DNA of 64,000 nt from a bacterium (GTDB lineage: Bacteria; Vulcanimicrobiota; JABDET01), in NCBI GenBank assembly GCA_021800275.1, contig JAJYZB010000002.1, positions 70,997 through 134,996 of the forward strand, read 5' to 3'. The notes under the pieces are model-generated. The model saw only the letters and a program-made list of their open reading frames with translations, was not told where the DNA came from and did no database searches. This document shows, one piece after another, positions 33,419 to 60,069 of the stretch. Position 1 is the stretch's first letter; the number at the start of each line of letters is the position of its first letter. The position numbers and the translations under genes were made by a program.

Positions 33419-34054
33419 TTAGCCATCATCTGTGCCGCCGCCAGGCAGACCAGCGCTCATCATCATCGTGTGCAGACCTCCTGGCTGTGATTGACCAGGC
33501 AGTGGATAATTGATAAAACCAGGGGGCTGCGGGTTTTCCCAGAAAGGGGGATTCGAGTAACTGAATTCATTGACCTGATCATAAGGATTCTGACCCCATG
33601 GATCTCCATATCCGCCATATCCGCCGCATCCGCCAGGAGCCTCTCTCTGAAAATCAGTTGTTGTTTCGTTCTGGCGTCCGCCAAATCCGATATTATCCTG
33701 CTGAACCTGCATATTGCCATTCTGATCAAGAGTATAAGAAGTTGTGCTGGGGCCAGTTCCAAAATCGTTCGGAGGGGCAGGAGTCGTTATCTGAACACAT
33801 TGATCCCCATTTTGATTAATCCAAACATTATAATTATTCCCATTCGCAGAATAGGTCGTATGCTGTATTCCATTTTGATCCGTATAAGTATTGGTATCGT
33901 ACTGACCATTAAACGCATTTTGTGTTGCCTGATCAATGATCCCTAAATTCTGGTTGTACTGCTGATCCTGTGAATTAAACGGCATGACCGGCGATACCCA
34001 GGAAGTTGGACTCATCTCCTGCAGCAAATTATTCAAGCCTCCGATTCCACCCAT
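33419..34054 (-). CDS. Q/N/G/T-rich low-complexity protein beginning 'MGGIGG'
   Basis: AAGGAGG 8 nt before the ATG; 211 aa dominated by Q, N, G, T, with a 'GGCGGYGGYGDPWG' segment. Confidence 0.5.
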   Translation of the reverse strand: MGGIGGLNNLLQEMSPTSWVSPVMPFNSQDQQYNQNLGIIDQATQNAFNGQYDTNTYTDQNGIQHTTYSANGNNYNVWINQNGDQCVQITTPAPPNDFGTGPSTTSYTLDQNGNMQVQQDNIGFGGRQNETTTDFQREAPGGCGGYGGYGDPWGQNPYDQVNEFSYSNPPFWENPQPPGFINYPLPGQSQPGGLHTMMMSAGLPGGGTDDG

Positions 34055-34356
34055 TTTTTTACCTCCTTAAAAGAGCTTTGCTGTTTTTTATATCAATTCA
34101 CTAACTCTTTTTTTTGATTTTCTTTAATTATAATCCATTTCAGCCCTTATTTCTTGCATTCTTGTGTAGAAAATGTTAAAATTTTGTTAAAATGAACCTT
34201 GGACTCAATCATCTGTGTTTAGCGCTATTCCCAGCAGAGGTGAAATGAACAGGAGAACGGAGCTGCAAATCCATTTTTGTAAATTTACCATACTTGTTCT
34301 ATAAATTTGCCGTCCTTTAGTAAGGAAAACGAGAAAATAGATAGAAAAATCTCTCT

Positions 34357-36627
34357 ATGGCAAAAATTCTGCTGGTTGAAGATGATGTCCATATTTTGAA
34401 AACTCTAGAGAAGATCCTAAAAGAGCGAGGATTTGAAGTTGTCACTGCTGCCAATGGCTTGGAAGCTATCGAATTAGCGCAGAAAGAAGAACTCTCAATG
34501 GTCATTACCGATGTAAGAATGCCTGGAATGGATGGGATTGAAGCCCTTGGAAAAATAAAAACTTATCAACCTGATGCCAGAAAATTAATTATCACAGGTT
34601 ATGCGGGAGATGATGCTCCAATTAGAGCTATTCATCTTTCTGTGGACGACTATTTAATGAAACCATTTTCCCCCGAAAAGTTTTTGCAAAGTGTTGAAAC
34701 AGCGATTCTGAAATATCAATCTGAAGCGCAAAAAACTGAGGCTGCAATTTTCTCTTCCAGCCTACAGCAAAGTCTTAGAACTCTTGTGCAGGAGATTGAA
34801 ACAAGAATTCCAAATGGAACTGAGCGTTCCCGAAGGATCTCTGAATTGGGAACAAAGCTTGGTCAAATAGCAAAACTTGAAAAAAATCAAACTGAAATCC
34901 TGCTTTTTCTTTTATCTTTCCATGATCTCGGCTATTTATCTTATTCAGATCAAGAACTGGAAAATTTACTTTCCATCAAACATGCCGAATGTCTGGGAAA
35001 AATTTTCAAAGGGATGCCCGGTGGTGAACAAATCGCGCTCCTTTACTTGAATCACCATATGCCTTTTGAAGAATCAGATGAAAATTTTTCTATCCTGCCT
35101 CATCTCCTTTTCCTCAGCGAGTCTTTCGAAAACTTAATCTCTACAGGGCTCAGCTCAAAAGAAGCTCTGCAGACCCTGTTAAAAGATGCGGGAAAACTTT
35201 GGGAGCCTTCTCTCCTCGAGATGCTTGAGGATGCTTTGTTCAATCCTCTGCAGAGATTTTCTGAAAAACCCTCCTCAAAAATTTATGAAATACTCCTGCA
35301 TCTCGGAAAAACTTATACTTCTATCGGAGAAATTGAAACAGGAAAAGCGGCCATCCAAAAACTTTTAGAAAAAGAACACGAGATAGATGATCCAGATTTT
35401 AAGTTCAGGCTTCATCTCGCCTTGGCGCAGAACTTAATTCGAGATCAGAAATTCTTGGAAGGGGAGGAAGAAGCCTGCAGAACCCTTGAAACCGCTCTGA
35501 CTTTAAATCTCAGCCCACTCATGATCTCATCGGTTCTTCTGGAAATTGTTCTAGCAAGACTGTTTCTGGAAAAGACCGATAAACTGGAAGAATTCCTTGA
35601 AAAGGGAAAAAGCCATTTTGAAAAATTCAGCGATAAACGGAATTTAGCTCGAACCGAGCTCTATTTTTCCATTCTTGCCGGGATCCTCAAAAAAAGTGAT
35701 CACGCCAAAAGTCATTTCGAAGTCTGCAGAAAGATTGTGGAAGAAGAAAAACTTGAAGACTTCTGGGAATCCGAATTCTCAGCCTTGAAACTTATGAAAA
35801 CACGCTCGGATTCTGATCAGGTCTTCAATTCGAACATTCCTGAAGAAAAAGGACTTAAAATTTACTCTCTTGGACCCGTTCGGATTTATCGAGATGGAAC
35901 TATGATTTCAGAAGAGGCATGGAAAAGCAAAAAAGGAAAAATTCTCTTAAATTATCTTCTGCTGAACATGGAACGGCCTGTTTCAGAAGATAAATTATGC
36001 GATCTATTCTGGCCTCAAGGGGATCCAGAAAGATCCAGAAAAAATCTCCATCATGTCATCTATCTTTTAAGAAGAATTCTTGAACCAGACTTAAAAGATG
36101 GGGCTGATTCGCAGTATATTCTTTCACAACACAATGCCTATCAATTTAATAAATCATCAACCTACTGGTGGGACGTCCATGAGTTTAAAGAAAATATCCA
36201 GAAAGCCCAGTCTTTCTGCAGTTCGAAACAGCACGAAAAAGGGATTGAAACCATACGAAAATTAGAGAATCTTTATGGAGGGGATCTTCTAGAAGATTAT
36301 CTGGAAGAAACCTGGTGCAATTTTGAGCGAGATAGATTAAAGGAACCATTCTTAAATTTGCTTTTAGCCGCTTCATCCTATTATGAACAAAAACAAGACG
36401 ACGTGATGGCTTTAGAATTTGCCCAAAAAACCCTATCCCTGGAGCCATTCCGTGAAAAAACGGCTCAACTGGTCATCCATCTCTTATATAAAAGCGGGAA
36501 AAGAACAGAAGCAGTCAGAAAATATCAAATTTGGTGTTCCCAATTAGAAAAAGAGTTAAATTTAAAGCCCTCACCTGAATTCGCTGCGCTTTATGAAAAA
36601 ATGGTGATTGGCAGCACCTCTTATTGA
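34357..36627 (+). CDS. Multidomain regulator: REC receiver, degenerate HD-GYP-like domain, OmpR-type winged helix and BTAD (SARP-like) domain
   Basis: REC 'ILLVEDD...MVITDVRMPGMDG'; middle 'LSFHDLGY...NHHMPFEE' (HD-GYP-like without the GYP signature); 'IYSLGPVRIYRDGTMISEEAWKSKKGKILLNYLL' wHTH followed by a helical BTAD-like tail. Confidence 0.6.
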   Translation: MAKILLVEDDVHILKTLEKILKERGFEVVTAANGLEAIELAQKEELSMVITDVRMPGMDGIEALGKIKTYQPDARKLIITGYAGDDAPIRAIHLSVDDYLMKPFSPEKFLQSVETAILKYQSEAQKTEAAIFSSSLQQSLRTLVQEIETRIPNGTERSRRISELGTKLGQIAKLEKNQTEILLFLLSFHDLGYLSYSDQELENLLSIKHAECLGKIFKGMPGGEQIALLYLNHHMPFEESDENFSILPHLLFLSESFENLISTGLSSKEALQTLLKDAGKLWEPSLLEMLEDALFNPLQRFSEKPSSKIYEILLHLGKTYTSIGEIETGKAAIQKLLEKEHEIDDPDFKFRLHLALAQNLIRDQKFLEGEEEACRTLETALTLNLSPLMISSVLLEIVLARLFLEKTDKLEEFLEKGKSHFEKFSDKRNLARTELYFSILAGILKKSDHAKSHFEVCRKIVEEEKLEDFWESEFSALKLMKTRSDSDQVFNSNIPEEKGLKIYSLGPVRIYRDGTMISEEAWKSKKGKILLNYLLLNMERPVSEDKLCDLFWPQGDPERSRKNLHHVIYLLRRILEPDLKDGADSQYILSQHNAYQFNKSSTYWWDVHEFKENIQKAQSFCSSKQHEKGIETIRKLENLYGGDLLEDYLEETWCNFERDRLKEPFLNLLLAASSYYEQKQDDVMALEFAQKTLSLEPFREKTAQLVIHLLYKSGKRTEAVRKYQIWCSQLEKELNLKPSPEFAALYEKMVIGSTSY

Positions 36628-36637
36628 TTGGCATAAA

Positions 36638-38533
36638 TTAAAGCTGATCTAAAGCTCTATCAATCACAGACGCTTTTTCGAGAGAAGGCTTTATATTTTC
36701 TACTGCTGGGATTTTTAAAACAAACTGACTCCCCTCCCCCTTCTTGCTTTTCACCTGAATTTCCCCACCCATTGATTTGATAATTCCAAAACTGACTGAC
36801 AATCCTAACCCTGTCCCTTTTCCGATCTCTTTTGTCGTGAAAAACGGATCAAAAATTTTAGAAAGATTCTCTTCTGAGATTCCGCAGCCATTATCCGAAA
36901 TGCGCAAAATACTTTCTCGAGAATCTCCAAAAATATTGATCTCAATCACACCTGGGTTTTCTTTTTTTTCAAAAATCGCGTCTCTGGCATTTGATATTAA
37001 ATTCGCAAGAACCTGTATTAAATTATCAGGAACTCCATACACAGGCAGGCAGTCTTGAAAATCCGCTTTAACTTGAATATTATCCAGAGTTAACTGCTTA
37101 TCCCATAAATTCAAAGCCGCTGCAGCAGCCTCCTCAAGCTTGAAATTCTTTTTTTCATCAGCAGATTTTCTGGAAAAATTTAAAAGTTTTTGAACGATTC
37201 CCTGACATCTCTGAGAAGCTTGAAGAATGGTTTCAACAGCATCTTTATCCTCAGGTTTCTGCTGCAGCTGCCAGGCATTCAACACAATGGCTCCAAGGGG
37301 ATTATTAATTTCGTGCGCAACTCCTGCGGCCAGCTGCCCAACAGCAGCCAGTTTACTAGTTTCAATCAGCTGCGCCTGCATTTTTTTTAAATGATCGTTC
37401 GCCTGCAGGACTTCCTGATACAAAAAACTATTATTGACAGATGAAGAAATCTGACCCGCTAAAATCGTCAGAAATTTCTCCTGCTCTTCTCCAATGAAAG
37501 GGCGGCTGAGAAGCAGATATCCCAGGATTTCTCTTTCTGTTCTGAGAGGAATGACAGCTAGGGGAAGAAGGGCTTTAGGAAAAAGATGAGTGGGATGTTT
37601 GATGACACTCGTCAATTCGCCTTTTTCATTTAGAAAATCATTCTCCATCAAAGTCTCGGGCAGAGGGCTTCTCTCAAACTCCCCACAAGAATTTTTTTTA
37701 CAAAAAGAATCTTTCTCTTTTAAATAGATACTCACTCCAGAGGCTTTCAGTTTTTCCATAAGACCCATTAAAATCTCAGGAGCCATCTTCTGAAAATCCA
37801 AAGCCGCGGACAATTTTTTAGAAAGTTCGTAAATAATTTGCAGCTTTTCTTTTTCAACGTAAGATTTAAATCCAAATTTAAAAACAAAAAAAGCCACAAA
37901 AAATGAAACTGGGATAAAAAGAAAAAGGGGAGTTGAAAGGGAATGCTTTGCAATCGGAACAAAAGGCGCTAAAAGATAAAAAGGCAGTTCGAAAGCATAT
38001 CCGGCGCCAATCTCTTTTAATGAGAACTTCTCTTGAAATCTTCCAGCTTGAAAGACAAATGTCGTAAAATCGGTAAGAAGATGAAAAATAACAGCTGCTG
38101 CCAAAGGAAAAAATAAAGCATCTGAAAAGTTAAAAAAGTTTATTTTGCCCCCAATCTGTCCATAAAATAGAGAGGTCAGTCCTGTTGTGAAAGTATATCT
38201 GCTCACATTTGAAAAAATGGTATCAAAATTTATGCGGCCTTTTCTAACGAAGAAAAAAATAAGGAAGCCAAAGAAAACGGGTAGAACAGTTTGATTTCCC
38301 CATAATAAAATATAACAAAAAATCAGCGGATTTTCAAATCCAAAAGTAATGCTTGACCAGGGAAGTCGAACATACGTAAAAAGGGCGAGAACCAGAAATA
38401 CAGCTCCTAAAACAGTCTCTGTCCAATGGCTGAAAGGATGGCGCAAAAAAGCGCGCGCTAAAAATAAAATTGACACAATAGAGATAAGAATCTCAACAGC
38501 TAAGAATTTAAATCTCTTCTTATTAATGCTCAA
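36638..38533 (-). CDS. Membrane sensor histidine kinase (multi-TM N-terminus, HisKA plus HATPase_c)
   Basis: 'AAGVAHEINNPLGAI' H-box; 'ISDNGCGISEENLSKIFDPFFTTK' and 'GTGLGLSVS' ATPase motifs. Confidence 0.8.
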   Translation of the reverse strand: MSINKKRFKFLAVEILISIVSILFLARAFLRHPFSHWTETVLGAVFLVLALFTYVRLPWSSITFGFENPLIFCYILLWGNQTVLPVFFGFLIFFFVRKGRINFDTIFSNVSRYTFTTGLTSLFYGQIGGKINFFNFSDALFFPLAAAVIFHLLTDFTTFVFQAGRFQEKFSLKEIGAGYAFELPFYLLAPFVPIAKHSLSTPLFLFIPVSFFVAFFVFKFGFKSYVEKEKLQIIYELSKKLSAALDFQKMAPEILMGLMEKLKASGVSIYLKEKDSFCKKNSCGEFERSPLPETLMENDFLNEKGELTSVIKHPTHLFPKALLPLAVIPLRTEREILGYLLLSRPFIGEEQEKFLTILAGQISSSVNNSFLYQEVLQANDHLKKMQAQLIETSKLAAVGQLAAGVAHEINNPLGAIVLNAWQLQQKPEDKDAVETILQASQRCQGIVQKLLNFSRKSADEKKNFKLEEAAAAALNLWDKQLTLDNIQVKADFQDCLPVYGVPDNLIQVLANLISNARDAIFEKKENPGVIEINIFGDSRESILRISDNGCGISEENLSKIFDPFFTTKEIGKGTGLGLSVSFGIIKSMGGEIQVKSKKGEGSQFVLKIPAVENIKPSLEKASVIDRALDQL

Positions 38534-38539
38534 TGTGGA

Positions 38540-39082
38540 TTAATGATCCACCCGCGGACCTAAAATTGGACCCACTGCACTACACATATTATCCATTAAA
38601 TTTTCCGGATTTTCCCAATTGAAATCTTCTTCAACTTTTTTTCTTCCCAGATCGTAGCTCCTAATTGTATTGTAAATGGAAGGCTGTGAAGAAAAATTCT
38701 GAGGATCGATCCATGGACCCTGAATTGGACCCTGGCTGTCAAATCCTGATGAAATTCCACCTGTCCCGAAGAAAGAACTCCATGGAGAACCAAGCCCTGA
38801 AAGAAATCCAGGAGAGTATAAAGGCGAAGAATACGGACTGCCGTAAAATGAATTCAACCAGTTTCCTGACCACGGGCTTTCACAAAACTGTTCACAAGGA
38901 GGGCAGCTGCAGAACCCGGAATCAGACCCCAAAGCATTCTCCCAGGAAGACTTAAATTGAAGTTGGGGATACGAGGATGAACAAGGATTAAAAGAAGGAC
39001 TTGCCGGACAGCTGCATGCTACTTCCGATGGAGCAGAAAAATCAAAAAACTGATTTCCCGAAAAAATCTCTCCTATGCTCAT
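38540..39082 (-). CDS. S/P/G/C-rich low-complexity hypothetical protein
   Basis: 180 aa ORF; TTTACA-N16-TATAAT promoter-like sequence and a GGGGG RBS upstream. Confidence 0.4.
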   Translation of the reverse strand: MSIGEIFSGNQFFDFSAPSEVACSCPASPSFNPCSSSYPQLQFKSSWENALGSDSGFCSCPPCEQFCESPWSGNWLNSFYGSPYSSPLYSPGFLSGLGSPWSSFFGTGGISSGFDSQGPIQGPWIDPQNFSSQPSIYNTIRSYDLGRKKVEEDFNWENPENLMDNMCSAVGPILGPRVDH

Positions 39083-39149: not shown

Positions 39150-40172
39150 TCACGCCTCCTGGTGATTTTTTAGTGATTTTGTGAATCCATCGGGATGTTT
39201 TTTATGCCATTGATAGGCTGAAGAAAGAATTTTATCAAGAGATTGGCATTGGGGAACCCAGGACAGCTCCTGGCGAATTTTTTTAGAACTGGCGACAAGA
39301 ACAGCAGGATCCCCGGGTCTTCTTCCCGCAGTCTGAACAGGAACTTTTCTGCCCGAAATTTTCTCCAGATTTTCAATAACCTCTCTCACACTGTACCCTT
39401 TTTCACTCCCGATGTTATAGACTGTTGAAGCTAAACCCTTATCAAGGGCTTCTGCGGCTAAAAAATGCGCCTGAGCCAGATCCCAAACATGAACATAATC
39501 TCGGATACAGGTTCCATCTGGAGTGGGATAGTCCATTCCATACATAGAAAGAAAAGGGATCAAGTTAAGGGACGCTTGACAGGCTAAAGGAATCAGATGG
39601 GATTCAGGAAGATGTGCCTCTCCTAAATTACCGGAAGGATGGGCTCCAGAGGCATTAAAATAACGGAGACAGACTGAACGAATCCCAAAACTTCTCTCAT
39701 ACACCTGGAGCATCTCTTCCATCATCAATTTTGTCAATCCATAAGGACTTGTCGGCCTCAAAGGAAAGCTTTCTGATATTGGATTCTCAACCGGTTCTCC
39801 ATAAACAGCTGCTGAAGAAGAAAACAGAACCCAGGGAATCCGACATTTCCTGACAACTTCTAAAAAGGGAATCGCTTTTGAGACATTATTCTCAAAATAC
39901 TTTCCTGGATTTTTCACGGATTCTCCAACCTCAATGAACCCTGCAAAATGCAGCACCCCAGCCACAGGATAAGTATTGAATATTTGGTTTAGAATTTCTA
40001 CATCTGAAATATCAGACTGAAAAAAAGGAATGTCAGCAGGAACCGCTTCTCTGTACCCTTTTGACAAATTATCCAGAATAATGCACTTTTTTTCCCTCTC
40101 AAGAAAAAAACTTAAAACATGACTGCCTACGTATCCAGCAGCACCTGTGAAAAGATAATACTTTTGGGACAT
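39150..40172 (-). CDS. galE: NAD-dependent epimerase, UDP-glucose 4-epimerase-like
   Basis: 'FTGAAGYVGSH' Rossmann motif; 340 aa with GalE-like overall layout. Confidence 0.8.
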   Translation of the reverse strand: MSQKYYLFTGAAGYVGSHVLSFFLEREKKCIILDNLSKGYREAVPADIPFFQSDISDVEILNQIFNTYPVAGVLHFAGFIEVGESVKNPGKYFENNVSKAIPFLEVVRKCRIPWVLFSSSAAVYGEPVENPISESFPLRPTSPYGLTKLMMEEMLQVYERSFGIRSVCLRYFNASGAHPSGNLGEAHLPESHLIPLACQASLNLIPFLSMYGMDYPTPDGTCIRDYVHVWDLAQAHFLAAEALDKGLASTVYNIGSEKGYSVREVIENLEKISGRKVPVQTAGRRPGDPAVLVASSKKIRQELSWVPQCQSLDKILSSAYQWHKKHPDGFTKSLKNHQEA

Positions 40173-40384: not shown

Positions 40385-40435
40385 TTAGCAGCAAGAAAGT
40401 GTTATGATAAGGGGAACAGCAGGAGGGTGAGAATT

Positions 40436-41716
40436 ATGGGCGGCATTAGCGTAGCATTAGGAAACATAGAAAAATCTGCAGTTAATTCAGTTGATAATAT
40501 TGGAAATACGCTTGGACATGATCTCGGCATAAACAAACCAGCGACTCCACCACCCCAGACACAAACTCCTGATGTTCAAACACAGACACAAGCTCAGGGT
40601 GGAACTCAGCCCCAAACTCAGGATAAAACCTCAATCTTATCCCAAGCAAAATCCACTCTCACAAACTTTGGTCATTCTGTGGCAGGGGCTTTAGGAGTCG
40701 GTAAAACCAGCGCAGGCGCTGTGGCGACTGCTGCAGTCACAGGAGGTGCAGTGGCAGGACCCCTTGGAGCTGCTGCAGCAGGTGGAGTAACGGCAGCAGT
40801 TGTGGGTGGAGCAAGTCTTGCAGCTAATCAGGAAAACAAACAAGGGGCAGATGCTAGCGCAGGCTCAATTCTTAAAGATAATCTTGTCAGTGGAGTAACA
40901 GGAATTGGCCAGGATCTAGGACTGCTTCAAAATTCTCCTCTCACAAAGACAGGTTATCCTCCAATTTATGGAGGAACTCAAGCACAGGCGAATCAAATCT
41001 GGGGATACATGGACGGAAAACCTCCTATGCCTCTTGCTGACAGGCAAGCCGTTCATTCCATCCATGTGGGATCCAATTACACAACAGGAGCTTTTCAAAC
41101 TGTGGCTAAAGGAGCGAATGGACAAGACCAGAATTTCGGAGATATTTATCTCAATACAAATGATTTAAAAAATCAAGGGCAGTATGTTGTTCTTCATGAA
41201 TCAGGACATGCGGTAGAAATACACAATGGAACCTTACAGGGTCCGACAGCGAGTGTCTGGAATGGACCAGATATCTACGGCACAGCTGCAGCTGATTCTC
41301 AAGCAGGGGAAGCGAATAATCCAGCAGCAGAAACTTTTGCTGATGCTTATGCAGCATATTACAGTGGAAATGGAGCTGCTCTGCAGAAAGTTGCTCCCCA
41401 GGAATATAATGCCATTGCATCAGGAGCTTACAAAGCCCAGGGACCTTCAACTGTTACTACAGGAGATCAAGTGATGAGTGGACTCACTAATTTTGGAGAG
41501 GCAGTCTCCTCTGGAATTGGGTGGTTAGGAAACACAATTGGAGGAGCTGTTGGAGCAGGGTTAGCCGCTGCGGGGAATGGCTTTCTAGCGAATACCGGAT
41601 TTGGAGCCAATGCTTTTGCAGGATCAGCTGCTCCTGTTTTGCAAGGAATAGGAGCTGGCAATCTGGCGGATAATTCTGCTGGCGGCGGACCGAGGGTTCC
41701 AGTCTGGGGTGGGTAA
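40436..41716 (+). CDS. HExxH zinc-metallopeptidase-like protein with anthrax-lethal-factor-like (ATLF / M34-like) catalytic core and Gly/Ala-rich flanks
   Basis: 'VVLHESGHAVE' followed ~40 aa later by 'AAETFADAYAAYY' (HExxH plus E-x-F-A-E/D-A-F/Y); AGGAGG 9 nt before the ATG at 40436 (ORF track opens at the GTG at 40427). Confidence 0.5.
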   Translation: MGGISVALGNIEKSAVNSVDNIGNTLGHDLGINKPATPPPQTQTPDVQTQTQAQGGTQPQTQDKTSILSQAKSTLTNFGHSVAGALGVGKTSAGAVATAAVTGGAVAGPLGAAAAGGVTAAVVGGASLAANQENKQGADASAGSILKDNLVSGVTGIGQDLGLLQNSPLTKTGYPPIYGGTQAQANQIWGYMDGKPPMPLADRQAVHSIHVGSNYTTGAFQTVAKGANGQDQNFGDIYLNTNDLKNQGQYVVLHESGHAVEIHNGTLQGPTASVWNGPDIYGTAAADSQAGEANNPAAETFADAYAAYYSGNGAALQKVAPQEYNAIASGAYKAQGPSTVTTGDQVMSGLTNFGEAVSSGIGWLGNTIGGAVGAGLAAAGNGFLANTGFGANAFAGSAAPVLQGIGAGNLADNSAGGGPRVPVWGG

Positions 41717-41727
41717 GAATATGCAGA

Positions 41728-43089
41728 ATGTTTGTGTCTAAAAATAAAAATTATTCTTTACAGGTTTATCTAGGATTTTTAAATTTAACAGCATTTTTTT
41801 GTTTATTTTTCTCATTGCACAAAAACTCTTTTGATATCAGCGAAGTCTTACTAGGATTCTGGGTTCTCCTTTTCTTTTTTGCGAATATGCTTTCAACAAA
41901 AGTTTTTATAAAAAATTTCGAAATGTACTTAAATGTTTCTTCTGCCATCAGCACAGCGAGTTATTTTCTATTCGGTTTAACCCCTTGCCTTTTAGTCATT
42001 ATCTTCGGATTTTCAAGTTTTTTTCTATGGAAGCGATGGCATTTTTATAAGTGGGCAGGAACAGTCTCATTTTGGGTGATCAGTTATTCGATTGATAGTT
42101 TTTTTATTTCTCTAATTCAAACCCCTTTTTCTTATCCATGGATTATCGTAAAGGTGATTGTTTTTCAAGCGATTTTTATTCTACTTGGAACCCTTCTTGC
42201 TGATCTTCTCATCAGTTTTGGGCAAAAAATTTCATTAAAAACACTTTTACTTTCAGAAACAAAAGAAGTTTTGTCAGGAAATCTCATGGAAACTTTCATT
42301 TATTCCATGCTTGCCTGCATCCTGATGTCTCTCTGGCTCCACACCCCCTGGGCAGTCTCCCTTCTTTTCATTCCATTTTACGGATTAAAACTCGTGATGG
42401 AAAGCGGACAGAAAATTCAAGCTGAACTGGCAAAAGCCATGAATGCCTTAAATGACATTTTAGAGGCAAAAGATGAATACACTGAACGGCATACAGATCG
42501 AGTGGCTAAATATGCAGTGATCATTGCTAAACATTATGGAGGGTTCTCTGATGAACAATTAGACCTGATCGCCAAAGTGGGGAAGATTCATGATGTCGGA
42601 AAAGTGATGGTCAGAGATGATGTATTGAAAAAACCAGGAAAATTAACTCCTGAAGAATATGAACACATCAAACTTCATGTCCAGAAAGATTTTGTCACAA
42701 ATACAATCCCTCCTGAATATCCGCTTGCCAAATGGCTGCAGCTTGCCAGACTGCATCATGAACGATATGATGGCAAAGGATATCCGTTTGGATTAAAAGG
42801 AGAAGAAATTCCGATAGAACTCAGAATTATCTCTGTGGCTGATGCCTGGGATGCCATGACCACCCGCAGGGTTTATCGGGCAAGTCTCGCAAATGACACC
42901 GCTCTGCAAACTCTTAAAGAGGGGGCTGGAACTCAATGGGATCCAACCGTTATCAACGCTTTCTTCAAAGCTTATGATTCAGGACAAATTCAAGCGCTTC
43001 AAGCTGAACACAAAGCAAAGCTGCAAAAGCAGAAATGGGATGCCCTTCAAAAACTAGACCAGTATCTGTCTCTTGAAAGCAGTCTTTAA
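41728..43089 (+). CDS. Membrane-anchored HD-GYP phosphohydrolase, paralogue 1
   Basis: Multi-TM N-terminus; 'KIHDVGKV' and 'HHERYDGKGYP' HD-GYP motifs; starts 11 nt after the metallopeptidase-like gene. Confidence 0.8.
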   Translation: MFVSKNKNYSLQVYLGFLNLTAFFCLFFSLHKNSFDISEVLLGFWVLLFFFANMLSTKVFIKNFEMYLNVSSAISTASYFLFGLTPCLLVIIFGFSSFFLWKRWHFYKWAGTVSFWVISYSIDSFFISLIQTPFSYPWIIVKVIVFQAIFILLGTLLADLLISFGQKISLKTLLLSETKEVLSGNLMETFIYSMLACILMSLWLHTPWAVSLLFIPFYGLKLVMESGQKIQAELAKAMNALNDILEAKDEYTERHTDRVAKYAVIIAKHYGGFSDEQLDLIAKVGKIHDVGKVMVRDDVLKKPGKLTPEEYEHIKLHVQKDFVTNTIPPEYPLAKWLQLARLHHERYDGKGYPFGLKGEEIPIELRIISVADAWDAMTTRRVYRASLANDTALQTLKEGAGTQWDPTVINAFFKAYDSGQIQALQAEHKAKLQKQKWDALQKLDQYLSLESSL

Positions 43090-43098
43090 CCCAGAGCC
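42331..43098 (+). repeat. Direct repeat copy 1 (3' part of HD-GYP paralogue 1)
   Basis: Aligns base for base with 44108-44875 at a constant 1777 bp offset; the 3' portion is nearly identical by eye. Confidence 0.8.
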
Positions 43099-43123
43099 AT
43101 AGGCTTAAGACCGGAGACCAAAA

Positions 43124-43153
43124 TTTACAAAACGTTAATCTTTCCATCATAAT
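43124..43153 (+). promoter_or_regulatory. Sigma70-like promoter (TTTACA-N18-CATAAT) with a conserved AAAACGTTAATCTT spacer motif
   Basis: About 50 nt upstream of the 43204 gene; near-duplicate of the 40355-40384 element. Confidence 0.4.
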
Positions 43154-43203
43154 GCTGCAATACTTGTATGTTATACTAAAACCAGGAAGAGGAGGCATTA
43201 ATA

Positions 43204-43488
43204 ATGAATGTAGCCTTGATTCGTTCTCACAACACAGGAAGCATTGTTTCAGGCAGCACAGGAACAGCCGCAGCAAAAGCTCTTAATACTGCTCCCCCAC
43301 ATGTCAACTCTCAAGTCCGAGACACAGCTTCAATTTCGTCCCCAACAGTGGATGCTTTTGCAAAATTCCACAATTCCATAAAAGGAGCATTAGACGGCAC
43401 CAGTGGAAGTAAAGAGAAGAATTCTCCAAAATTTCATCATAAAAACCACGGCAAAATCACAATAGGGATTGGAAACCCACATCCTTAA
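43204..43488 (+). CDS. Small S/T/G-rich hypothetical protein
   Basis: 94 aa ORF with AGGAGG 8 nt upstream of the ATG; its stop lies inside the apparent start region of HD-GYP paralogue 2. Confidence 0.45.
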   Translation: MNVALIRSHNTGSIVSGSTGTAAAKALNTAPPHVNSQVRDTASISSPTVDAFAKFHNSIKGALDGTSGSKEKNSPKFHHKNHGKITIGIGNPHP

Positions 43489-44866
43489 GGAGTCACAAGA
43501 AAACCTCTTGTCAGAACCTAAGAATCTCTCCTTAAGAATTTTCCGCTGTGCTTCAATTATAATTGGAATTACAGCTTTTCTTTATGGAACTTTTCACTCC
43601 AACGCAGCAGTAAATCTTTTTTCTCTTTTTGTTTGGAGCTTATTTCTTTTTTGCGCCAGTATGCTGGAATGTAAAATCTCAATTAAAAATCTCACTTTCT
43701 ACTTGGATATTTCTAATGCCATTGGAATTGGAGCTTATTTTCTTTTTGGATTAAAATTCTTTCTGCTGGTTCTAGGGTTAGGAAAACTGATGTTTTATCT
43801 ATTGAAAAAATACCCTCTTTATCCCTGGTGGGCTCAAGCCATTACTTTCTGGTGTATTTCTTATGTAATCCCAAGCTTATTTATCCCATACAATTTAGTT
43901 CATCTCACTTTCCCAGAAAAAATACTTCATATTATCCTTTTCTCGGTAATCTCAGGTCTAATTTTAATTCTGCTTATGGATCTTTTAAACGGTTTTCAGG
44001 AGAATATCTCTCTAAAAGAAATGCTCATGATCGAAATAAAAGAAGGGCTATTTATAGATTTTATCCAGATCTTCATTTTTGCCATGCTTTCCTTTGACTT
44101 AATCTTCCTCTGGCTCCACACCCCCTGGGCAGTCCCCCTTCTTTTCATCCCATTTTACGGGTTAAAACTCGTGATGGAGAATGGCCAGAAGATCCAGGCT
44201 GAACTGGCAAAAACCATGAATGCCTTGAATGACATTTTAGAAGCCAAAGATGAAGACACAGAAAAACATACTGAAAGGGTTTCTAAATATGCCGTGATCA
44301 CTGCTAAACATTATGGAGGATTTTCTGATGAGCAATTAGACCTGATCGAAAAAGTGGGAAAACTCCATGATGTCGGAAAAATTTTGGTCAGAGATGACGT
44401 ATTGAAAAAACCAGGCAAATTAACTCCTGAAGAATATGAACACATCAAACTTCATGTCCAGAAAGATTTTGTCACAGATACAATCCCTCCTGAATATCCG
44501 CTTGCCAAATGGCTGCAGCTTGCCCGACTGCATCATGAACGATATGATGGCAAAGGATATCCGTTTGGATTAAAAGGAGAAGAAATTCTGATAGAACTCA
44601 GAATTATTTCAGTGGCTGATGCCTGGGATGCCATGACCACCCGCAGGGTTTATCGGGCAAGCCTCTCAAACGAAACCGCGCTGCAGACTCTAAAGGAAGG
44701 GGCTGGAACTCAATGGGATCCAACCGTTATCAACGCTTTTTTCAAAGCTTATGATTCCGGAGAAATTCAAGCGCTTCAAGCTGAACACAAAGCAAAGCTG
44801 CAAAAGCAGAAATGGGATGCCCTTCAAAAACTAGACCAGTATCTCTCCCTTGAAAGCAGTCTTTAA
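43469..44866 (+). CDS. Membrane-anchored HD-GYP phosphohydrolase, paralogue 2
   Basis: Same motifs as paralogue 1; the N-terminal TM region also aligns; the start at 43469 is a TTG and is uncertain. Confidence 0.8.
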   Translation: METHILKESQENLLSEPKNLSLRIFRCASIIIGITAFLYGTFHSNAAVNLFSLFVWSLFLFCASMLECKISIKNLTFYLDISNAIGIGAYFLFGLKFFLLVLGLGKLMFYLLKKYPLYPWWAQAITFWCISYVIPSLFIPYNLVHLTFPEKILHIILFSVISGLILILLMDLLNGFQENISLKEMLMIEIKEGLFIDFIQIFIFAMLSFDLIFLWLHTPWAVPLLFIPFYGLKLVMENGQKIQAELAKTMNALNDILEAKDEDTEKHTERVSKYAVITAKHYGGFSDEQLDLIEKVGKLHDVGKILVRDDVLKKPGKLTPEEYEHIKLHVQKDFVTDTIPPEYPLAKWLQLARLHHERYDGKGYPFGLKGEEILIELRIISVADAWDAMTTRRVYRASLSNETALQTLKEGAGTQWDPTVINAFFKAYDSGEIQALQAEHKAKLQKQKWDALQKLDQYLSLESSL

Positions 44867-44875
44867 CCCAGAGCC
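44108..44875 (+). repeat. Direct repeat copy 2 (3' part of HD-GYP paralogue 2)
   Basis: See copy 1; both copies end with the same stop context 'TAACCCAGAGCC'. Confidence 0.8.
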
Positions 44876-45037
44876 GCCTCAAAAATATTCTGAGCGCTTT
44901 TTAAACAAAAAGTAAACTTAAAAACGCGAAGTTAATTTTCGGTGAACATTTGCTGACTGCCGTTGACTCTTAAAATTTTGTCGTGTAAAATATAATTAGT
45001 GAAGAGCAGTAAAAAATAAATGGAGAGGAGAAGTGCT

Positions 45038-46429
45038 ATGACATTTACGTTTGATGATGTGTTTGAGAGTCATTTAGATTTCCCCGAAAAATCTCTTTAT
45101 TTTTTCGATCTTTTTTTAGCGGCAACTCTTATTTGCCTTGCTGCCGTTACTCTGCTTTTCCCTTTTCACTTCAACCTGCAAACTTTTCTTTTATGGGGAA
45201 TTTTAGCGTGGGTAGGGCACAGACGCAAATTTTTTCTAAAAATCAAACAAACTTCTTACACCCTGGATCTCGCGCATCCAATTTATCTGGCTGCATTCTT
45301 CCTCCATGGACTTCCTTTTGCTCTCTGGGTTTTCACTGCTTCAGGAGCGATTCAAGTTATTCTCGCAAACAAAGGTATCAGGCGCTTTGGTCTGGAAGTA
45401 GGAACCACTGTTTTAATCTCAACCCTCATCTATTCAATCCCATTTTTCCGTTCACCCATCAATAAAACTAATTTGCCCCAAGCTCTGCTCTTCATCCTGT
45501 TATTTCAGGCTCTTTATGTTCCATTTCATGCCATGATGCTCAGACTTTTTCAAGGAAGACGAACCAATCTCAAATCTTTCGAAAAAAATTCAAAAGAAAC
45601 ATTCGACTTGCTAAATATTAAAGAAATAATAGAGGAATTGGGTTTTCAACCCTTTCTATCCAGTCTGGTCATTCTAATTTCTTTATGGCACGAACTTTTA
45701 ATCCTCTTCTTTTTCTTGTTCGTGTCAGACATAATTTTTTCCCTGGAAGAACAATCCCGCCTTGGGAGAGGACTCGAGCAGACCACCCAAATTTTAAATC
45801 AAGCCCTCTTGACAAAAGATGGAACCACAGAACGCCATACCGAAAGAGTCAGGAGATATGCGGAACTCATTGCCAAAGAAATGAGACTCTCTCCTAAAGA
45901 AATTGAAAAAATTGGCTGGGCTGCTAAACTCCATGACATTGGAAAACTCTTTATTAAAGACGAAGTGTTAAAAAAAGCGTCTAATTTAACACAGAACGAA
46001 TACGAACACATCAAGCTTCACGTAAAACTGGATAACCTTCTGGATCCTTTGTTTAAAATACACAATCCCCTTGCTGAATTCATACACGTGGGGAGACTGC
46101 ACCATGAACGATACGATGGACAAGGATACCCTTTCGGATTAAAAGCGTCAGAAATCCCGCTTGCAGCTCGCATTATTTCTGTTGCTGATGCCTGGGATGC
46201 CATGACTTCCAACCGCCCCTATCGAAAACCCTTTGAGGAAAAACTAGCTCTGAAAATCTTAAAACAGGGGGCAGGGACTCAATGGGATCCTGAAGTTGTT
46301 TTCATCTTTAATCACCTGTATGATTCTCCAGAAATGATGGGCATCAGAAATGAATATCAGGATTGGAAAAAAACCGAAACAAAAAGAACACTGCAGAGAT
46401 TCGCAAGGCTCCTGGCATTTGAGACGTAA
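45038..46429 (+). CDS. Membrane-anchored HD-GYP phosphohydrolase, paralogue 3 (more divergent)
   Basis: 'KLHDIGKL' and 'HHERYDGQGYP'; GAGAGGAG 8 nt before the ATG at 45038 (ORF track opens at 45020). Confidence 0.75.
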   Translation: MTFTFDDVFESHLDFPEKSLYFFDLFLAATLICLAAVTLLFPFHFNLQTFLLWGILAWVGHRRKFFLKIKQTSYTLDLAHPIYLAAFFLHGLPFALWVFTASGAIQVILANKGIRRFGLEVGTTVLISTLIYSIPFFRSPINKTNLPQALLFILLFQALYVPFHAMMLRLFQGRRTNLKSFEKNSKETFDLLNIKEIIEELGFQPFLSSLVILISLWHELLILFFFLFVSDIIFSLEEQSRLGRGLEQTTQILNQALLTKDGTTERHTERVRRYAELIAKEMRLSPKEIEKIGWAAKLHDIGKLFIKDEVLKKASNLTQNEYEHIKLHVKLDNLLDPLFKIHNPLAEFIHVGRLHHERYDGQGYPFGLKASEIPLAARIISVADAWDAMTSNRPYRKPFEEKLALKILKQGAGTQWDPEVVFIFNHLYDSPEMMGIRNEYQDWKKTETKRTLQRFARLLAFET

Positions 46430-47471: not shown

Positions 47472-49268
47472 ATGCCCTCACGACAATCTCTAATCCGCAA
47501 TTTTTCTATTATTGCTCATATTGATCACGGAAAAAGCACGCTGGCTGACCGCCTTCTTGAAATCACTGGTTCCATCTCAAAGCGAGAAATGCAGGATCAA
47601 ATTTTAGACAGCCATCCTCTTGAAAAAGAAAGAGGAATTACAATCAAAGCTCACCCTGTTCAGCTGCATTACAAAGCTAAAAATGGATCTATTTATACCC
47701 TCCACCTTATTGATACTCCTGGCCATGTAGATTTCAATTATGAAGTTTCTCGATCTCTAGCAGCCTGCGAAGGAGCTCTTCTGGTGGTGGATGGAACTCA
47801 AGGAGTAGAAGCCCAGACTCTTGCCAATTATCTCCTGGCTGTTGAAAACATGCTGACCATTATCCCTGTCATCAATAAAATTGACCTGCCAACCGCTGAA
47901 CCCGATCGAGTTGAAAAAGAACTAAACGAACATCTTCTTCTAGAACCCTCAAAAATTTTAAAAGTAAGTGCAAAACAGGGAACTGGAATTGACGAAATCC
48001 TGGAGATGATTGTTGAAAAAATCAAACCCCCGGCAGGGAGCCCTGAATCCCCTCTCCGCGCTCTAATTTTTGACTCACATTATAACGCTTATCGTGGAGT
48101 CGTTGTGTCAGTCCGTGTGGTAGATGGAATTCTTAAAGCGCAGCAGAGGATCAAGATGATCTCAACTGAAAAAGAATATATTGTTGAAGAAGTAGGCGTT
48201 TTTACTCCTGAAATGAAACCCGTTGAACAAATTGAAGCTGGGGAAGTCGGTTATGTGATCGCCGGCATAAAAACAATCAGTGACACGCAGGTAGGAGACA
48301 CATTGACACATGCTGAACGCCCTGCCCTTCAGCCTCTTCCAGGGTATCGCAAAGTCACCCCAATGGTTTACTGCGGGTTTTATCCAATCGAAAATTCAGA
48401 TTATCTCTCTTTAAAAGATGCGCTCGAAAAACTAAAACTAAATGACTCCTCTTTATTTTATGAACCAGAAACATCGGCCGCTTTAGGATTTGGATTTAGA
48501 TGCGGATTTTTAGGGCTTCTCCACATGGAAATCATTCAAGAACGGCTGGAAAGAGAATACACCTTAACCCTTTTATCCACTGCTCCTAATGTGGTCTATC
48601 ACATTAAAACAGGCGACGGGAAAAACCATGTTATTCATAATCCGGCTGACTGGCCTGATGGAAAAATTGAAATAGTTGAAGAGCCATTTGTAAAAGCCAT
48701 CCTTTTTACTCCTGAAGAATATGTTGGATCTCTGATGGACATCTGTCAAATGAAGAGAGGAATTTACCAGCATCTGGAATATCTATCTCCTGGAAAAGTG
48801 GAGCTCCAGTATGAGCTTCCTCTTGCAGAAGTGATTACTGATTTCTATGATCAACTAAAAAGCAGAAGCCATGGTTACGCCTCTATTGATTATGAATTCT
48901 CAGGATACAAAGCTTCTGATCTGGTTAAACTTGAAATTTTGATCGCTGAAGAGGTTGTGGATGCTTTAAGTTATATTATCCATAGAGATAATGCCCAGCA
49001 GTTAGGGCGTTCTCTGGCAAATAAATTAAGAGAAGTGATTCCCAGGCAGTGGTTCGATGTCCCTATTCAAGCTGCGATTGGCGGCAAAATCATCGCTAGA
49101 GAAAATATAAAAGCGATGAGGAAAAATGTGCTTGCCAAATGTTATGGAGGAGACATAACCCGGAAAAGAAAGCTTCTAGAAAAACAAAAAGAGGGAAAGA
49201 AAAGAATGAAACAGTTAGGTAAAGTTGAAATTCCTCAAGAAGCCTTCTGGGCAATCCTAAAATTATGA
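47472..49268 (+). CDS. lepA: Translation elongation factor 4 (LepA)
   Basis: '[20 protein letters not shown]' G1 motif, 'DTPGHVDF', full-length 598 aa. Confidence 0.95.
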
Positions 49269-60056: not shown

Positions 60057-60069
60057 CTGGTTCTCTGCA

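What the first reader, a model, noticed from the sequence alone, without database searches (positions are those of the whole stretch)
34357..36627. Receiver domain fused to a degenerate HD-GYP-like domain and a SARP-type DNA-binding/BTAD module
The middle region keeps an 'FHDLGY' HD motif but lacks the GYP signature ('NHHMPFEE' in place of HHExxDGxGYP), suggesting a non-catalytic c-di-GMP-sensing or protein-interaction domain. The C-terminal wHTH plus BTAD resembles Streptomyces antibiotic regulatory proteins. This would combine phosphorylation and possibly c-di-GMP input in one transcription factor, encoded next to a membrane histidine kinase and near the three active HD-GYP paralogues.
Basis: partly seen in the sequence, partly recalled or inferred. 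Interest (0 to 1): 0.5.

Follow-up and report, generated by a model that had tools for sequence, protein, structure and literature searches.

The report
Response regulator with relic HD-GYP domain
This is a real and very rare two-component transcription factor from an uncultured bacterium: a phosphorylation receiver and a SARP-type DNA-binding activator are separated by a remodelled HD-GYP domain, which keeps its metal-binding residues but has lost every loop that normally holds c-di-GMP, and by a TPR domain.

Summary
The ORF at 34357..36627 (+, 756 aa) and both quoted motifs are exactly as described.

The degeneracy is specific. Three deletions remove the KPG loop, ExxDGxGY and RxYR, and the Lys of HDxGK is replaced. 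These are the c-di-GMP contact elements. Yet HD, His, HisHis and Asp->Glu are invariant in five relatives whose HD-like domains share only 23-58% identity. This is the opposite of the known HD-GYP-type c-di-GMP receptor DvhD, so canonical c-di-GMP sensing is unlikely.

The best reading is a phospho-activated SARP-type activator, partnered with the adjacent membrane GAF histidine kinase. The HD*-TPR block would act as a regulatory relay and may bind metal.

Only about 5 clusters in 5.8 billion proteins share the module. It is a new variant of the known SAPR (COG3947) response regulators. Interest is moderate.

The parts
34357..36627 (+). Whole gene: 756-aa response regulator, REC - stalk/HD-GYP-derived domain - TPR-like - wHTH - BTAD
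   Evidence: ORF list and translation. An identical protein and full-length relatives are on record. The AF2 model has mean pLDDT 82.3.
34357..34716 (+). Receiver (REC) domain, aa 1-120, with D9, D10, D52 (phospho-acceptor), T80 and K102
   Evidence: Pfam PF00072 E 2.8e-27. All five signature residues are invariant in the alignments of 8 and 11 relatives. Many solved receiver domains match.
34717..35271 (+). Long stalk helix (aa ~106-150) plus the degenerate HD-GYP-derived domain (aa ~150-305). It keeps H189, D190, H209, H233, H234 and E255. It lacks the first His (S158), the Lys of HDxGK (Y193), the KPG loop, ExxDGxGY and RxYR.
35272..35826 (+). TPR-like helical repeat domain, aa 306-490 (about eight paired helices)
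35854..36156 (+). Winged helix-turn-helix DNA-binding domain (OmpR/PhoB type), aa 500-600
   Evidence: Pfam Trans_reg_C scores 25.0 bits against a cut-off of 26.2; the paralogue scores 27.5 bits and passes. It is the best-conserved part after REC, with 40% invariant columns. It is part of the Foldseek match to the AfsR SARP domain.
36157..36624 (+). Bacterial transcriptional activator domain (BTAD), aa 601-756
   Evidence: Pfam PF03704 E 3.6e-17. wHTH+BTAD superposes on the AfsR SARP in RNAP complexes 8k60 and 8hvr (TM 0.77-0.79 over ~257 columns) and on EmbR 2fez.
36638..38533 (-). Putative cognate sensor histidine kinase: about 5-6 TM segments (aa 1-225), a GAF-like region, HisKA and HATPase_c. 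It is convergent with the regulator gene, with 10 bp between the stop codons.
   Evidence: Pfam and hydropathy. A kinase of the same type lies close to each of the three paralogue groups of the regulator: adjacent to it, one small ORF away, or in the same co-directional cluster. The paralogous kinase is 33% identical over its full length.
34154..34195 (+). Conserved upstream block with three 8-mers at exact 11-bp spacing (TGTGTAGA 34163, TGTTAAAA 34174, TGTTAAAA 34185). It overlaps a sigma-70-like TTGCAT-N17-TGtTAAAAT. It is either a candidate auto-regulatory SARP site or just the core promoter. This is a lead only.
   Evidence: Sequence. Conservation with the orthologous locus L004. Pattern search gives 8 matches against 2.2 expected. 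The motif occurs only upstream of the orthologous genes in L001-L004.
41728..46429 (+). Context: three tandem genes for complete HD-GYP proteins (41728..43089, 43469..44866, 45020..46429), used here as the canonical reference for the motif map
   Evidence: Pfam HD_5 and HD. Alignment with intact HDxGK, KKPG, HHERYDGxGYP and RxYR.

Best explanation
The gene encodes a two-component response regulator that most likely works as a phosphorylation-switched, SARP-type transcription activator. The adjacent membrane GAF histidine kinase would phosphorylate Asp52 (inferred). The signal would travel down a ~45-residue stalk helix into an HD-GYP-derived domain and a TPR domain. These two would gate the C-terminal wHTH+BTAD module by autoinhibition or by controlling oligomerisation. 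The wHTH+BTAD would then bind direct repeats at target promoters and recruit RNA polymerase, as the AfsR SARP does (inferred by analogy). The middle domain descends from a REC-HD-GYP (RpfG-type) ancestor (shown). It is no longer a c-di-GMP phosphodiesterase or a canonical c-di-GMP binder, because three deletions and one substitution remove all known nucleotide-contact elements (shown at sequence level). It has selectively kept six of the seven metal-ligand positions, so it probably still binds metal. That would serve either a structural role or act as a second, metal- or redox-type input (inferred).
For: Domain parse. REC signature residues D9, D10, D52, T80 and K102 are invariant. The AF2 model shows a continuous helix 106-150 linking REC to the HD-like domain; the DvhD paper describes such stalk helices as the dimerisation and relay element of HD-GYP domains. 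Motif map against the window's own complete HD-GYP genes: His->Ser158, HD kept, Lys->Tyr193, 11-aa gap at KPG, His209 kept, HH kept, 7-aa gap removing ExxDGxGY, Asp->Glu255, 5-aa gap removing RxYR. The literature names KPG Lys235/Gly237, Tyr285 and Arg314/Lys317 as the c-di-GMP contacts, and K582, Y621, R650 and Y652 in the receptor DvhD. The HD-like domain evolves fastest, with only 10% invariant columns among five relatives. Six of its 19 invariant columns are metal-ligand positions (hypergeometric P = 3.5e-6). Kinase pairing: all three paralogue groups have a ~600-650-aa HisKA/HATPase kinase adjacent or within the same short gene cluster, and kinase and regulator appear co-duplicated. SARP mechanism, including inhibition of the SARP domain by accessory TPR/NOD domains: PMC10936776. 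wHTH+BTAD matches the AfsR SARP at TM 0.77-0.79.
Against: Nothing here is biochemical. No DNA target is identified. The only candidate operator (34163-34195) can equally be read as the core promoter. Metal binding is inferred from conservation alone, because model coordinates could not be inspected. The first His ligand is lost, so one metal site lacks a ligand. More distant REC-X-SARP proteins lack HD and HH altogether, and their middle region is not significantly HD-like. So the metal site is not needed for the general architecture. c-di-GMP enzymes sit near two of the three paralogue groups: three HD-GYP genes here and a PAS-GGDEF gene inside the paralogous cluster. This keeps some c-di-GMP link alive. 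pTM is 0.39, so the arrangement of the domains relative to each other is not predicted.
Confidence: 0.6

Rival explanations
1. One reading: the degenerate HD-GYP domain is a non-catalytic c-di-GMP (or other cyclic dinucleotide) receptor, so one transcription factor integrates phosphorylation and c-di-GMP level.
Against: DvhD keeps its nucleotide contacts (K582, Y621, R650, Y652) and has lost the metal ligands (HD->SQ, HH->MN). This protein shows the reverse pattern. The KPG loop, the GYP Tyr with its whole loop, and RxYR are deleted, and the Lys after HDxG is Tyr or Phe, in all five family members. The third paralogue group has no c-di-GMP gene within 7 kb.
Confidence: 0.12
2. The HD-like domain is still an enzyme: a metal-dependent phosphohydrolase, or another HD-superfamily activity, on a different and smaller substrate, whose turnover or occupancy controls the SARP output.
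For: HD, His, HisHis and an acidic residue at the Asp position are invariant while the rest of the domain has diverged to 23-30% identity between the paralogue groups. The census paper notes that one RpfG lacking a 'key His' is still active and that the HD superfamily includes non-phosphodiesterase chemistries.
Against: The first His of the H...HD...D core is lost and replaced by different residues (S, Y, C/F) in different members. No substrate-binding residues can be proposed. An enzyme in the middle of a transcription factor has no support from context.
Confidence: 0.1
3. The HD-like domain is simply a decaying relic that serves as a rigid spacer or dimerisation scaffold with no ligand of any kind. 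Conservation of the His and Asp residues reflects fold stability only.
For: It is the least conserved domain of the protein. In more distant REC-X-TPR-SARP proteins (P0006, P0008, P0010, P0011) the HD and HH motifs are gone. HD-GYP domains dimerise through stalk helices.
Against: Six of seven metal-ligand positions are invariant against a 10% background (P = 3.5e-6). That is hard to explain without a bound metal, although a purely structural metal would fit this rival too.
Confidence: 0.18

Closest known systems
SAPR family response regulators (COG3947: REC + wHTH + BTAD)
   Same: An N-terminal receiver and a C-terminal SARP-type wHTH+BTAD output. JGI's annotation already calls this protein and its relatives 'two-component SAPR family response regulator'. 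The family is a recognised but uncommon response-regulator class, present in 8.4% of 628 species.
   Different: About 380 residues (HD-GYP-derived domain plus TPR domain) sit between REC and SARP. An exhaustive search of 1.84 billion cluster representatives finds only three with E < 1e-10 for this insert.
RpfG family (REC-HD-GYP) response regulators, including inactive members such as HnoD
   Same: REC followed by a stalk helix and an HD-GYP-fold domain. The best NCBIfam model is a REC-HD-GYP family, NF053512. Inactive members that act without catalysis are known.
   Different: In RpfG proteins HD-GYP is the C-terminal output; here it is internal and followed by a DNA-binding module. HnoD and ECA3548 have lost the metal ligands (HD->SE or HT; HHE->QLE or ANE). 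This protein keeps them and has lost the nucleotide-binding loops instead.
DvhD of Desulfovibrio vulgaris (degenerate HD-GYP c-di-GMP receptor, PDB 9rbz/9rc0)
   Different: DvhD binds c-di-GMP without metal, keeps the Lys/Tyr/Arg contacts and lacks HD and HH. The window protein shows the opposite pattern of loss.
AfsR and other SARPs of actinomycetes (also EmbR)
   Same: The wHTH+BTAD fold (TM 0.77-0.79 to AfsR SARP chains in RNAP complexes). An accessory TPR domain is present, which in AfsR restrains the SARP domain.
   Different: In SARPs the DNA-binding module is N-terminal and the accessory NOD/TPR domains are C-terminal. AfsR is controlled by ATP and Ser/Thr phosphorylation. Here the order is reversed, there is no NOD ATPase, and control is through a receiver domain. 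The host is a deep-branching uncultured lineage, not an actinomycete.

Membership tests
Response regulator receiver (REC, PF00072) | Profile match above the curated threshold | tested here: met
   95.5 bits against a cut-off of 30.2, E 2.8e-27, aa 4-113.
Response regulator receiver (REC, PF00072) | Acidic pair, phospho-acceptor Asp, Thr/Ser and Lys of the active site | tested here: met
   D9, D10, D52, T80 and K102 are present and invariant in 8 and 11 aligned relatives.
Response regulator receiver (REC, PF00072) | Phosphotransfer from a cognate histidine kinase | not testable with these tools
   Only context is available. A HisKA/HATPase kinase lies adjacent to, or in the same short gene cluster as, all three paralogue groups, and kinase and regulator are co-duplicated.
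HD-GYP domain (c-di-GMP phosphodiesterase; RpfG family when fused to REC) | Homology and fold of the HD-GYP domain | tested here: met
HD-GYP domain (c-di-GMP phosphodiesterase; RpfG family when fused to REC) | Complete metal-ligand set (His, HD, His, HisHis, Asp) | tested here: inconclusive
   Five of seven are identical and one is conservative (Asp->Glu255). The first His is Ser158. Actual metal binding was not tested.
HD-GYP domain (c-di-GMP phosphodiesterase; RpfG family when fused to REC) | HHExxDGxGYP signature (GYP motif) | tested here: not met
   'NHH-------MPF': a 7-residue deletion removes ExxDGxGY in all five family members.
HD-GYP domain (c-di-GMP phosphodiesterase; RpfG family when fused to REC) | c-di-GMP contact residues (Lys of HDxGK, KPG motif, RxxK motif) | tested here: not met
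   Lys->Tyr193. There is an 11-aa gap at KPG and a 5-aa gap at RxYR relative to the window's complete HD-GYP genes. The residues are as defined.
SARP (wHTH + BTAD transcription activator) | BTAD profile match | tested here: met
   PF03704, 63.5 bits against a cut-off of 22.1, aa 606-748.
SARP (wHTH + BTAD transcription activator) | OmpR/PhoB-type wHTH immediately before the BTAD | tested here: met
   Trans_reg_C scores 25.0 bits, just under the cut-off of 26.2; the paralogue scores 27.5 and passes. The combined module superposes on the AfsR SARP (TM 0.77-0.79) and on EmbR.
SARP (wHTH + BTAD transcription activator) | Binding to direct repeats spaced 11 or 22 bp apart, overlapping the -35 region, with RNAP recruitment | tested here: inconclusive
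   Three 8-mers at 11-bp spacing are conserved upstream of the gene itself, but they coincide with a promoter-like element. A scan for triple heptamer repeats in five intergenic regions found nothing.
SAPR family response regulator (COG3947) | REC + wHTH + BTAD in one polypeptide | tested here: met
   The source annotation carries the same name. The family is defined.
TPR domain | Profile match to TPR repeat families | tested here: not met
   Only sub-threshold hits: TPR_12 16.2, TPR_6 15.5, TPR_8 11.4 and RPN7 21.3 bits, all below their cut-offs.
TPR domain | TPR-like helical-repeat fold | tested here: met
DvhD-type degenerate HD-GYP c-di-GMP receptor | Metal ligands lost and nucleotide-contact Lys/Tyr/Arg residues retained | tested here: not met
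   The pattern is the opposite.

The most novel reading that the evidence does not exclude
The internal HD-GYP-derived domain is a new kind of sensory module: a metal-centre domain (for example di-iron or Mn) stripped of its nucleotide pocket. It would report metal availability, redox state, O2 or NO, or bind a new small ligand, directly to a SARP-type DNA-binding output. The protein would then be a two-input (phosphorylation AND metal/redox) transcription factor, and an example of an HD-GYP domain repurposed as something other than a c-di-GMP enzyme or receptor.
Probability: 0.2. Interest if true: 0.65.

Novelty: new variant of a known kind. Interest (0 to 1): 0.45.

Why it matters
The HD-GYP census consulted here describes these domains as typically C-terminal, acting as c-di-GMP/cGAMP hydrolases or through protein-protein interactions, and DvhD shows one acting as a c-di-GMP receptor. 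This protein places an HD-GYP-derived domain inside a transcription factor. Its pattern of loss (nucleotide loops excised, metal ligands kept) is the mirror image of the known degenerate forms. If the metal site works, that would extend what HD-GYP-fold domains are used for. It would also give a compact REC-sensor-TPR-SARP switch from an uncultured lineage. If the site does not work, the protein still documents how an RpfG-type regulator was converted into a DNA-binding one. It also warns against annotating 'degenerate HD-GYP' automatically as 'c-di-GMP sensor'.

Tried and rejected
(1) Pfam HD and HD_5 on the target protein: no hit even at E <= 10. Homology had to be shown by other routes.
(2) tblastn of the non-REC part against the window: only marginal hits (E 0.05) to two HD-GYP genes and no paralogue of the regulator in the window.
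(3) Rfam scan of the window at gathering thresholds: nothing.
(4) Scan for three or more heptamer direct repeats at 10-12 or 21-23 bp spacing in five intergenic regions: none. The 11-bp repeats upstream of the gene were found only through promoter alignment.
(5) Test of whether the middle region of more distant REC-X-SARP proteins (P0006, P0008, P0011) is a further-decayed HD-GYP: hhalign probability 5.7% over 35 columns. It aligns at the right place but is not significant.
(6) Homology between the 180-aa ORF next to the kinase and the 180-aa ORF in the paralogous cluster: none.
(7) Organism identity: the genome collection gives only 'MAG: bacterium isolate YP4.bin17' for the closest relative.
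(8) Literature: no paper in the searchable library combines HD-GYP with BTAD in one protein. The HD-GYP census does not mention BTAD, HTH or DNA-binding partners.
(9) Profile search of the insert in the 5.8-billion-protein set: apart from P0001 and P0002 it returned only ordinary HD-GYP signalling proteins and no further BTAD fusions.
Full report

Yes. The ORF 34357..36627 (+) is a 756-codon frame with an ATG start. Its translation contains 'FHDLGY' (aa 188-193) and 'NHHMPFEE' (aa 232-239) exactly as quoted. An identical protein is on record in several assemblies. Full-length relatives of 756-759 aa exist at 70, 44, 43 and 37% identity, so this is a conserved gene and not a chance frame.

The stated neighbours are also there:
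- a HisKA/HATPase_c kinase at 36638..38533 (-);
- three HD_5/HD proteins at 41728, 43469 and 45020 (+), each with complete HDxGK, KKPG, HHERYDGxGYP and RxYR motifs.

**2. Domain anatomy**

Pfam gives the following:
- Response_reg at aa 4-113 (E 2.8e-27);
- BTAD at 606-748 (E 3.6e-17);
- Trans_reg_C at 525-589, 25.0 bits, just under the 26.2 cut-off;
- only sub-threshold TPR/RPN7 hits between 311 and 454;
- no HD or HD_5 hit.

A full-length AlphaFold2 model built on 11 relatives has mean pLDDT 82.3 but pTM 0.39. The domains are confident; their mutual arrangement is not. Its best Foldseek matches in PDB are the SARP domain of AfsR in RNA-polymerase complexes (8k60 and 8hvr, TM 0.77-0.79 over ~257 columns), EmbR, and receiver domains.

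A separate model of aa 121-500 (pLDDT 82.4) splits into two folds.

The architecture is therefore REC (1-120), a stalk helix plus an HD-GYP-derived domain (121-305), a TPR-like domain (306-490), a wHTH (500-600) and a BTAD (601-756).

**3. Is the middle domain really HD-GYP-derived?**

Four independent lines say yes.
- The middle region of this protein alone (aa 121-318) hits NCBIfam NF053512, a REC-HD-GYP family, at E 2.3e-7. The whole protein scores 123 bits on that model against 95 bits for REC alone.
- A profile built only from the five full-length relatives (alignment A3) hits five PDB sequences at E < 10. All are HD-GYP proteins: 5z7c at 8.7e-8, 9rbz, 4r8z, 9rc0 and 4mcw.
- hhalign of that profile against the window's three HD-GYP genes gives 95.8% probability, E 7.8e-9, over 161 columns.
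- The fold searches above agree.

A 39%-identical paralogue (L005) passes Pfam's own cut-offs for HD (28.2 vs 22) and HD_5 (27.3 vs 27.2). A profile search of the insert in 5.8 billion proteins returns, besides the family, only bona fide HD/HD_5 signalling proteins.

**4. What kind of degeneracy?**

The family was aligned with the window's complete HD-GYP genes and read against the residues named in the HD-GYP census and the DvhD structure paper. PmGH numbers for metal ligands other than E185 come from my own recollection. They are consistent with the spacing of the cited residues K235, Y285, R314 and K317.

| Canonical element | In this protein |
|---|---|
| N-terminal His ligand | Ser158 (variable in the family) |
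| HD | H189, D190 kept |
| Lys of HDxGK | Tyr193 (Phe in the paralogues) |
| KPG loop | deleted (11-aa gap) |
| Third His | H209 kept |
| HH | H233, H234 kept |
| ExxDGxGY | deleted (7-aa gap; 'PF' remains) |
| Asp ligand | Glu255 (invariant) |
| RxYR/K | deleted (5-aa gap) |

All five family members share the three deletions. The HD-like domain is the fastest-evolving part of the protein: 10% invariant columns, against 49% in REC and 40% in the wHTH. Six of its 19 invariant columns are the metal-ligand positions H189, D190, H209, H233, H234 and E255. The hypergeometric probability of at least 6 of 7 is 3.5e-6.

Selection has therefore kept the metal site and discarded the nucleotide pocket. 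The characterised degenerate HD-GYPs do the reverse.
- DvhD binds c-di-GMP without metal, through Lys/Tyr/Arg contacts, and has HD->SQ and HH->MN.
- HnoD and ECA3548 have also lost HD and HHE.

**5. Context and distribution**

The gene sits tail-to-tail with the kinase gene, with 10 bp between the stop codons. The kinase has about 5-6 TM segments and no large periplasmic loop, then a GAF-like region, HisKA and HATPase. It appears to be the last gene of a minus-strand unit: epimerase (39150..40172), a 180-aa low-complexity ORF, then the kinase.

The same layout is found in identical and orthologous contigs. Two further paralogue groups of the regulator exist, and each has a kinase of the same type nearby.
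- One group has the order kinase, small ORF, PAS-GGDEF, small ORF, regulator, seen in L005 and L007/L008.
- The other has the order regulator, 208-aa ORF, kinase.

The paralogous kinase is 33% identical over its whole length, so kinase and regulator were duplicated together. Ortholog and paralogue lie on one contig of 'MAG: bacterium isolate YP4.bin17'.

LepA from the window is at most 65-67% identical to any named organism (Bacillota, Eremiobacterota), so the host is a deep, unnamed, uncultured lineage. An exhaustive phmmer search of aa 121-500 against 1.84 billion cluster representatives finds only three with E < 1e-10. The module is very rare.

More distant REC-X-TPR-SARP proteins exist.
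- P0007 still has a DGSGHP motif, and P0009 has DGQGVP.
- P0006, P0008 (labelled Vulcanimicrobiota), P0010 and P0011 lack HD and HH.
- For three of these (P0006, P0008, P0011) the middle region was compared with the HD-GYP profile and HD-GYP ancestry is not statistically demonstrable.

**6. Mechanism**

Shown:
- an intact receiver;
- a continuous ~45-residue helix from REC into the HD-like domain;
- an HD-GYP-fold domain without nucleotide-contact elements;
- a TPR domain;
- a SARP-fold wHTH+BTAD;
- a co-inherited kinase.

Inferred:
- The kinase phosphorylates D52.
- The change is relayed through the stalk, as described for HD-GYP dimers, to the HD*-TPR block.
- That block releases or assembles the SARP module.
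- The SARP module binds direct repeats overlapping the -35 region and recruits RNAP, as the AfsR SARP does. In AfsR the accessory NOD/TPR domains inhibit the SARP domain until a signal arrives.
- The retained metal site may be structural, or it may provide a second input.

Canonical c-di-GMP sensing is unlikely, for the reasons in section 4. The proximity of c-di-GMP enzymes in two of three paralogue groups is more simply read as possible regulatory targets or a shared pathway, but that is speculation.

**7. A lead on DNA targets**

The 300-bp region upstream of the gene contains a ~70-bp block conserved with the ortholog. It holds three 8-mers at exact 11-bp periodicity: TGTGTAGA at 34163, TGTTAAAA at 34174 and TGTTAAAA at 34185. 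This is the geometry expected of SARP sites.

The block also reads as TTGCAT-N17-TGtTAAAAT, a sigma-70-like promoter. The two-repeat pattern with up to 3 mismatches occurs 8 times in the window against 2.2 +/- 1.8 expected, and 1 of 100 shuffles reaches 8. The exact core occurs only upstream of the orthologous genes. This remains unresolved.

**8. Comparison and novelty**

By domain composition the protein belongs to the recognised but uncommon SAPR (COG3947) class of response regulators. The source annotation already says so. It is homologous to RpfG-type REC-HD-GYP proteins, but it fails their defining GYP and c-di-GMP-contact features.

Three things are new:
- an HD-GYP-derived domain in an internal position, followed by a DNA-binding output. 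The census describes HD-GYP as typically C-terminal and lists no DNA-binding partner, and no paper combining HD-GYP and BTAD was found;
- the inverted pattern of degeneracy;
- the reversed order of TPR and SARP relative to large SARPs.

**Verdict:** a new variant of a known kind, in a rare uncultured lineage. Interest is moderate (0.45), rising to about 0.65 if the metal site proves to be a sensory input.

Noticed in passing
window 34125-34195: A ~70-bp promoter-region block is conserved with the orthologous MAG locus. It contains a self-complementary ATTATAAT (34128-34135) and three 8-mers at exact 11-bp spacing (34163, 34174, 34185) that overlap a sigma-70-like -35/-10 pair. The window also has about 85 extra bases in the leader (roughly 34235-34320) that the ortholog lacks.
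   Followed up: partly
window 33419..34054 (-), 38540..39082 (-), 40427..41716 (+): Three low-complexity ORFs without Pfam hits flank the two-component genes. One is a Q/N/G-rich 211-aa protein divergent from the regulator. One is an S/P/G/F/C-rich 180-aa protein just upstream of the kinase. One is a G/A/Q/T-rich 429-aa protein with an HESGH (HExxH-type) motif directly upstream of the first HD-GYP gene. The paralogous loci also carry small no-Pfam ORFs next to kinase and regulator, but these are not detectably homologous.
   Followed up: partly
window 41728..43089, 43469..44866, 45020..46429 (+): Three tandem HD-GYP genes. Two are 93% identical in the catalytic domain, which points to a recent duplication. 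All carry an N-terminal region of about 240 aa with no Pfam match. At the position 4 residues before the first His ligand (the Glu that decides trinuclear vs binuclear centres) they have Tyr, Asp and Thr respectively.
   Followed up: partly
window 49265..50674 (+): Another unusual response regulator: a REC domain fused to an FAD-dependent oxidoreductase domain (PF12831). Its gene starts 4 bp before the end of lepA.
   Followed up: no
window 36627-36638: The regulator and kinase genes converge with only 10 bp between their stop codons. That leaves no room for separate intrinsic terminators outside coding sequence.
   Followed up: no
L005 3847-4776; L007 5377-6330; L008 5533-6486: In the paralogous two-component cluster a PAS-GGDEF diguanylate cyclase gene sits between the kinase and the REC-HD*-TPR-SARP regulator, on the same strand. 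This is seen in L005 and in L007/L008.
   Followed up: partly
window 47472..49268 (+) (lepA) and the whole window: The host is a deep-branching uncultured lineage. The nearest named LepA matches are only 65-67% identical (Bacillota, Eremiobacterota), and the closest genome record is an unclassified 'MAG: bacterium'. The window has about 40% G+C and no Rfam match at gathering thresholds.
   Followed up: partly
window 56091..60155 (-): A 1354-aa ORF whose only Pfam match is a short, weak hit to the SpoIVB peptidase S55 family (aa 83-148). It is otherwise unannotated.
   Followed up: no
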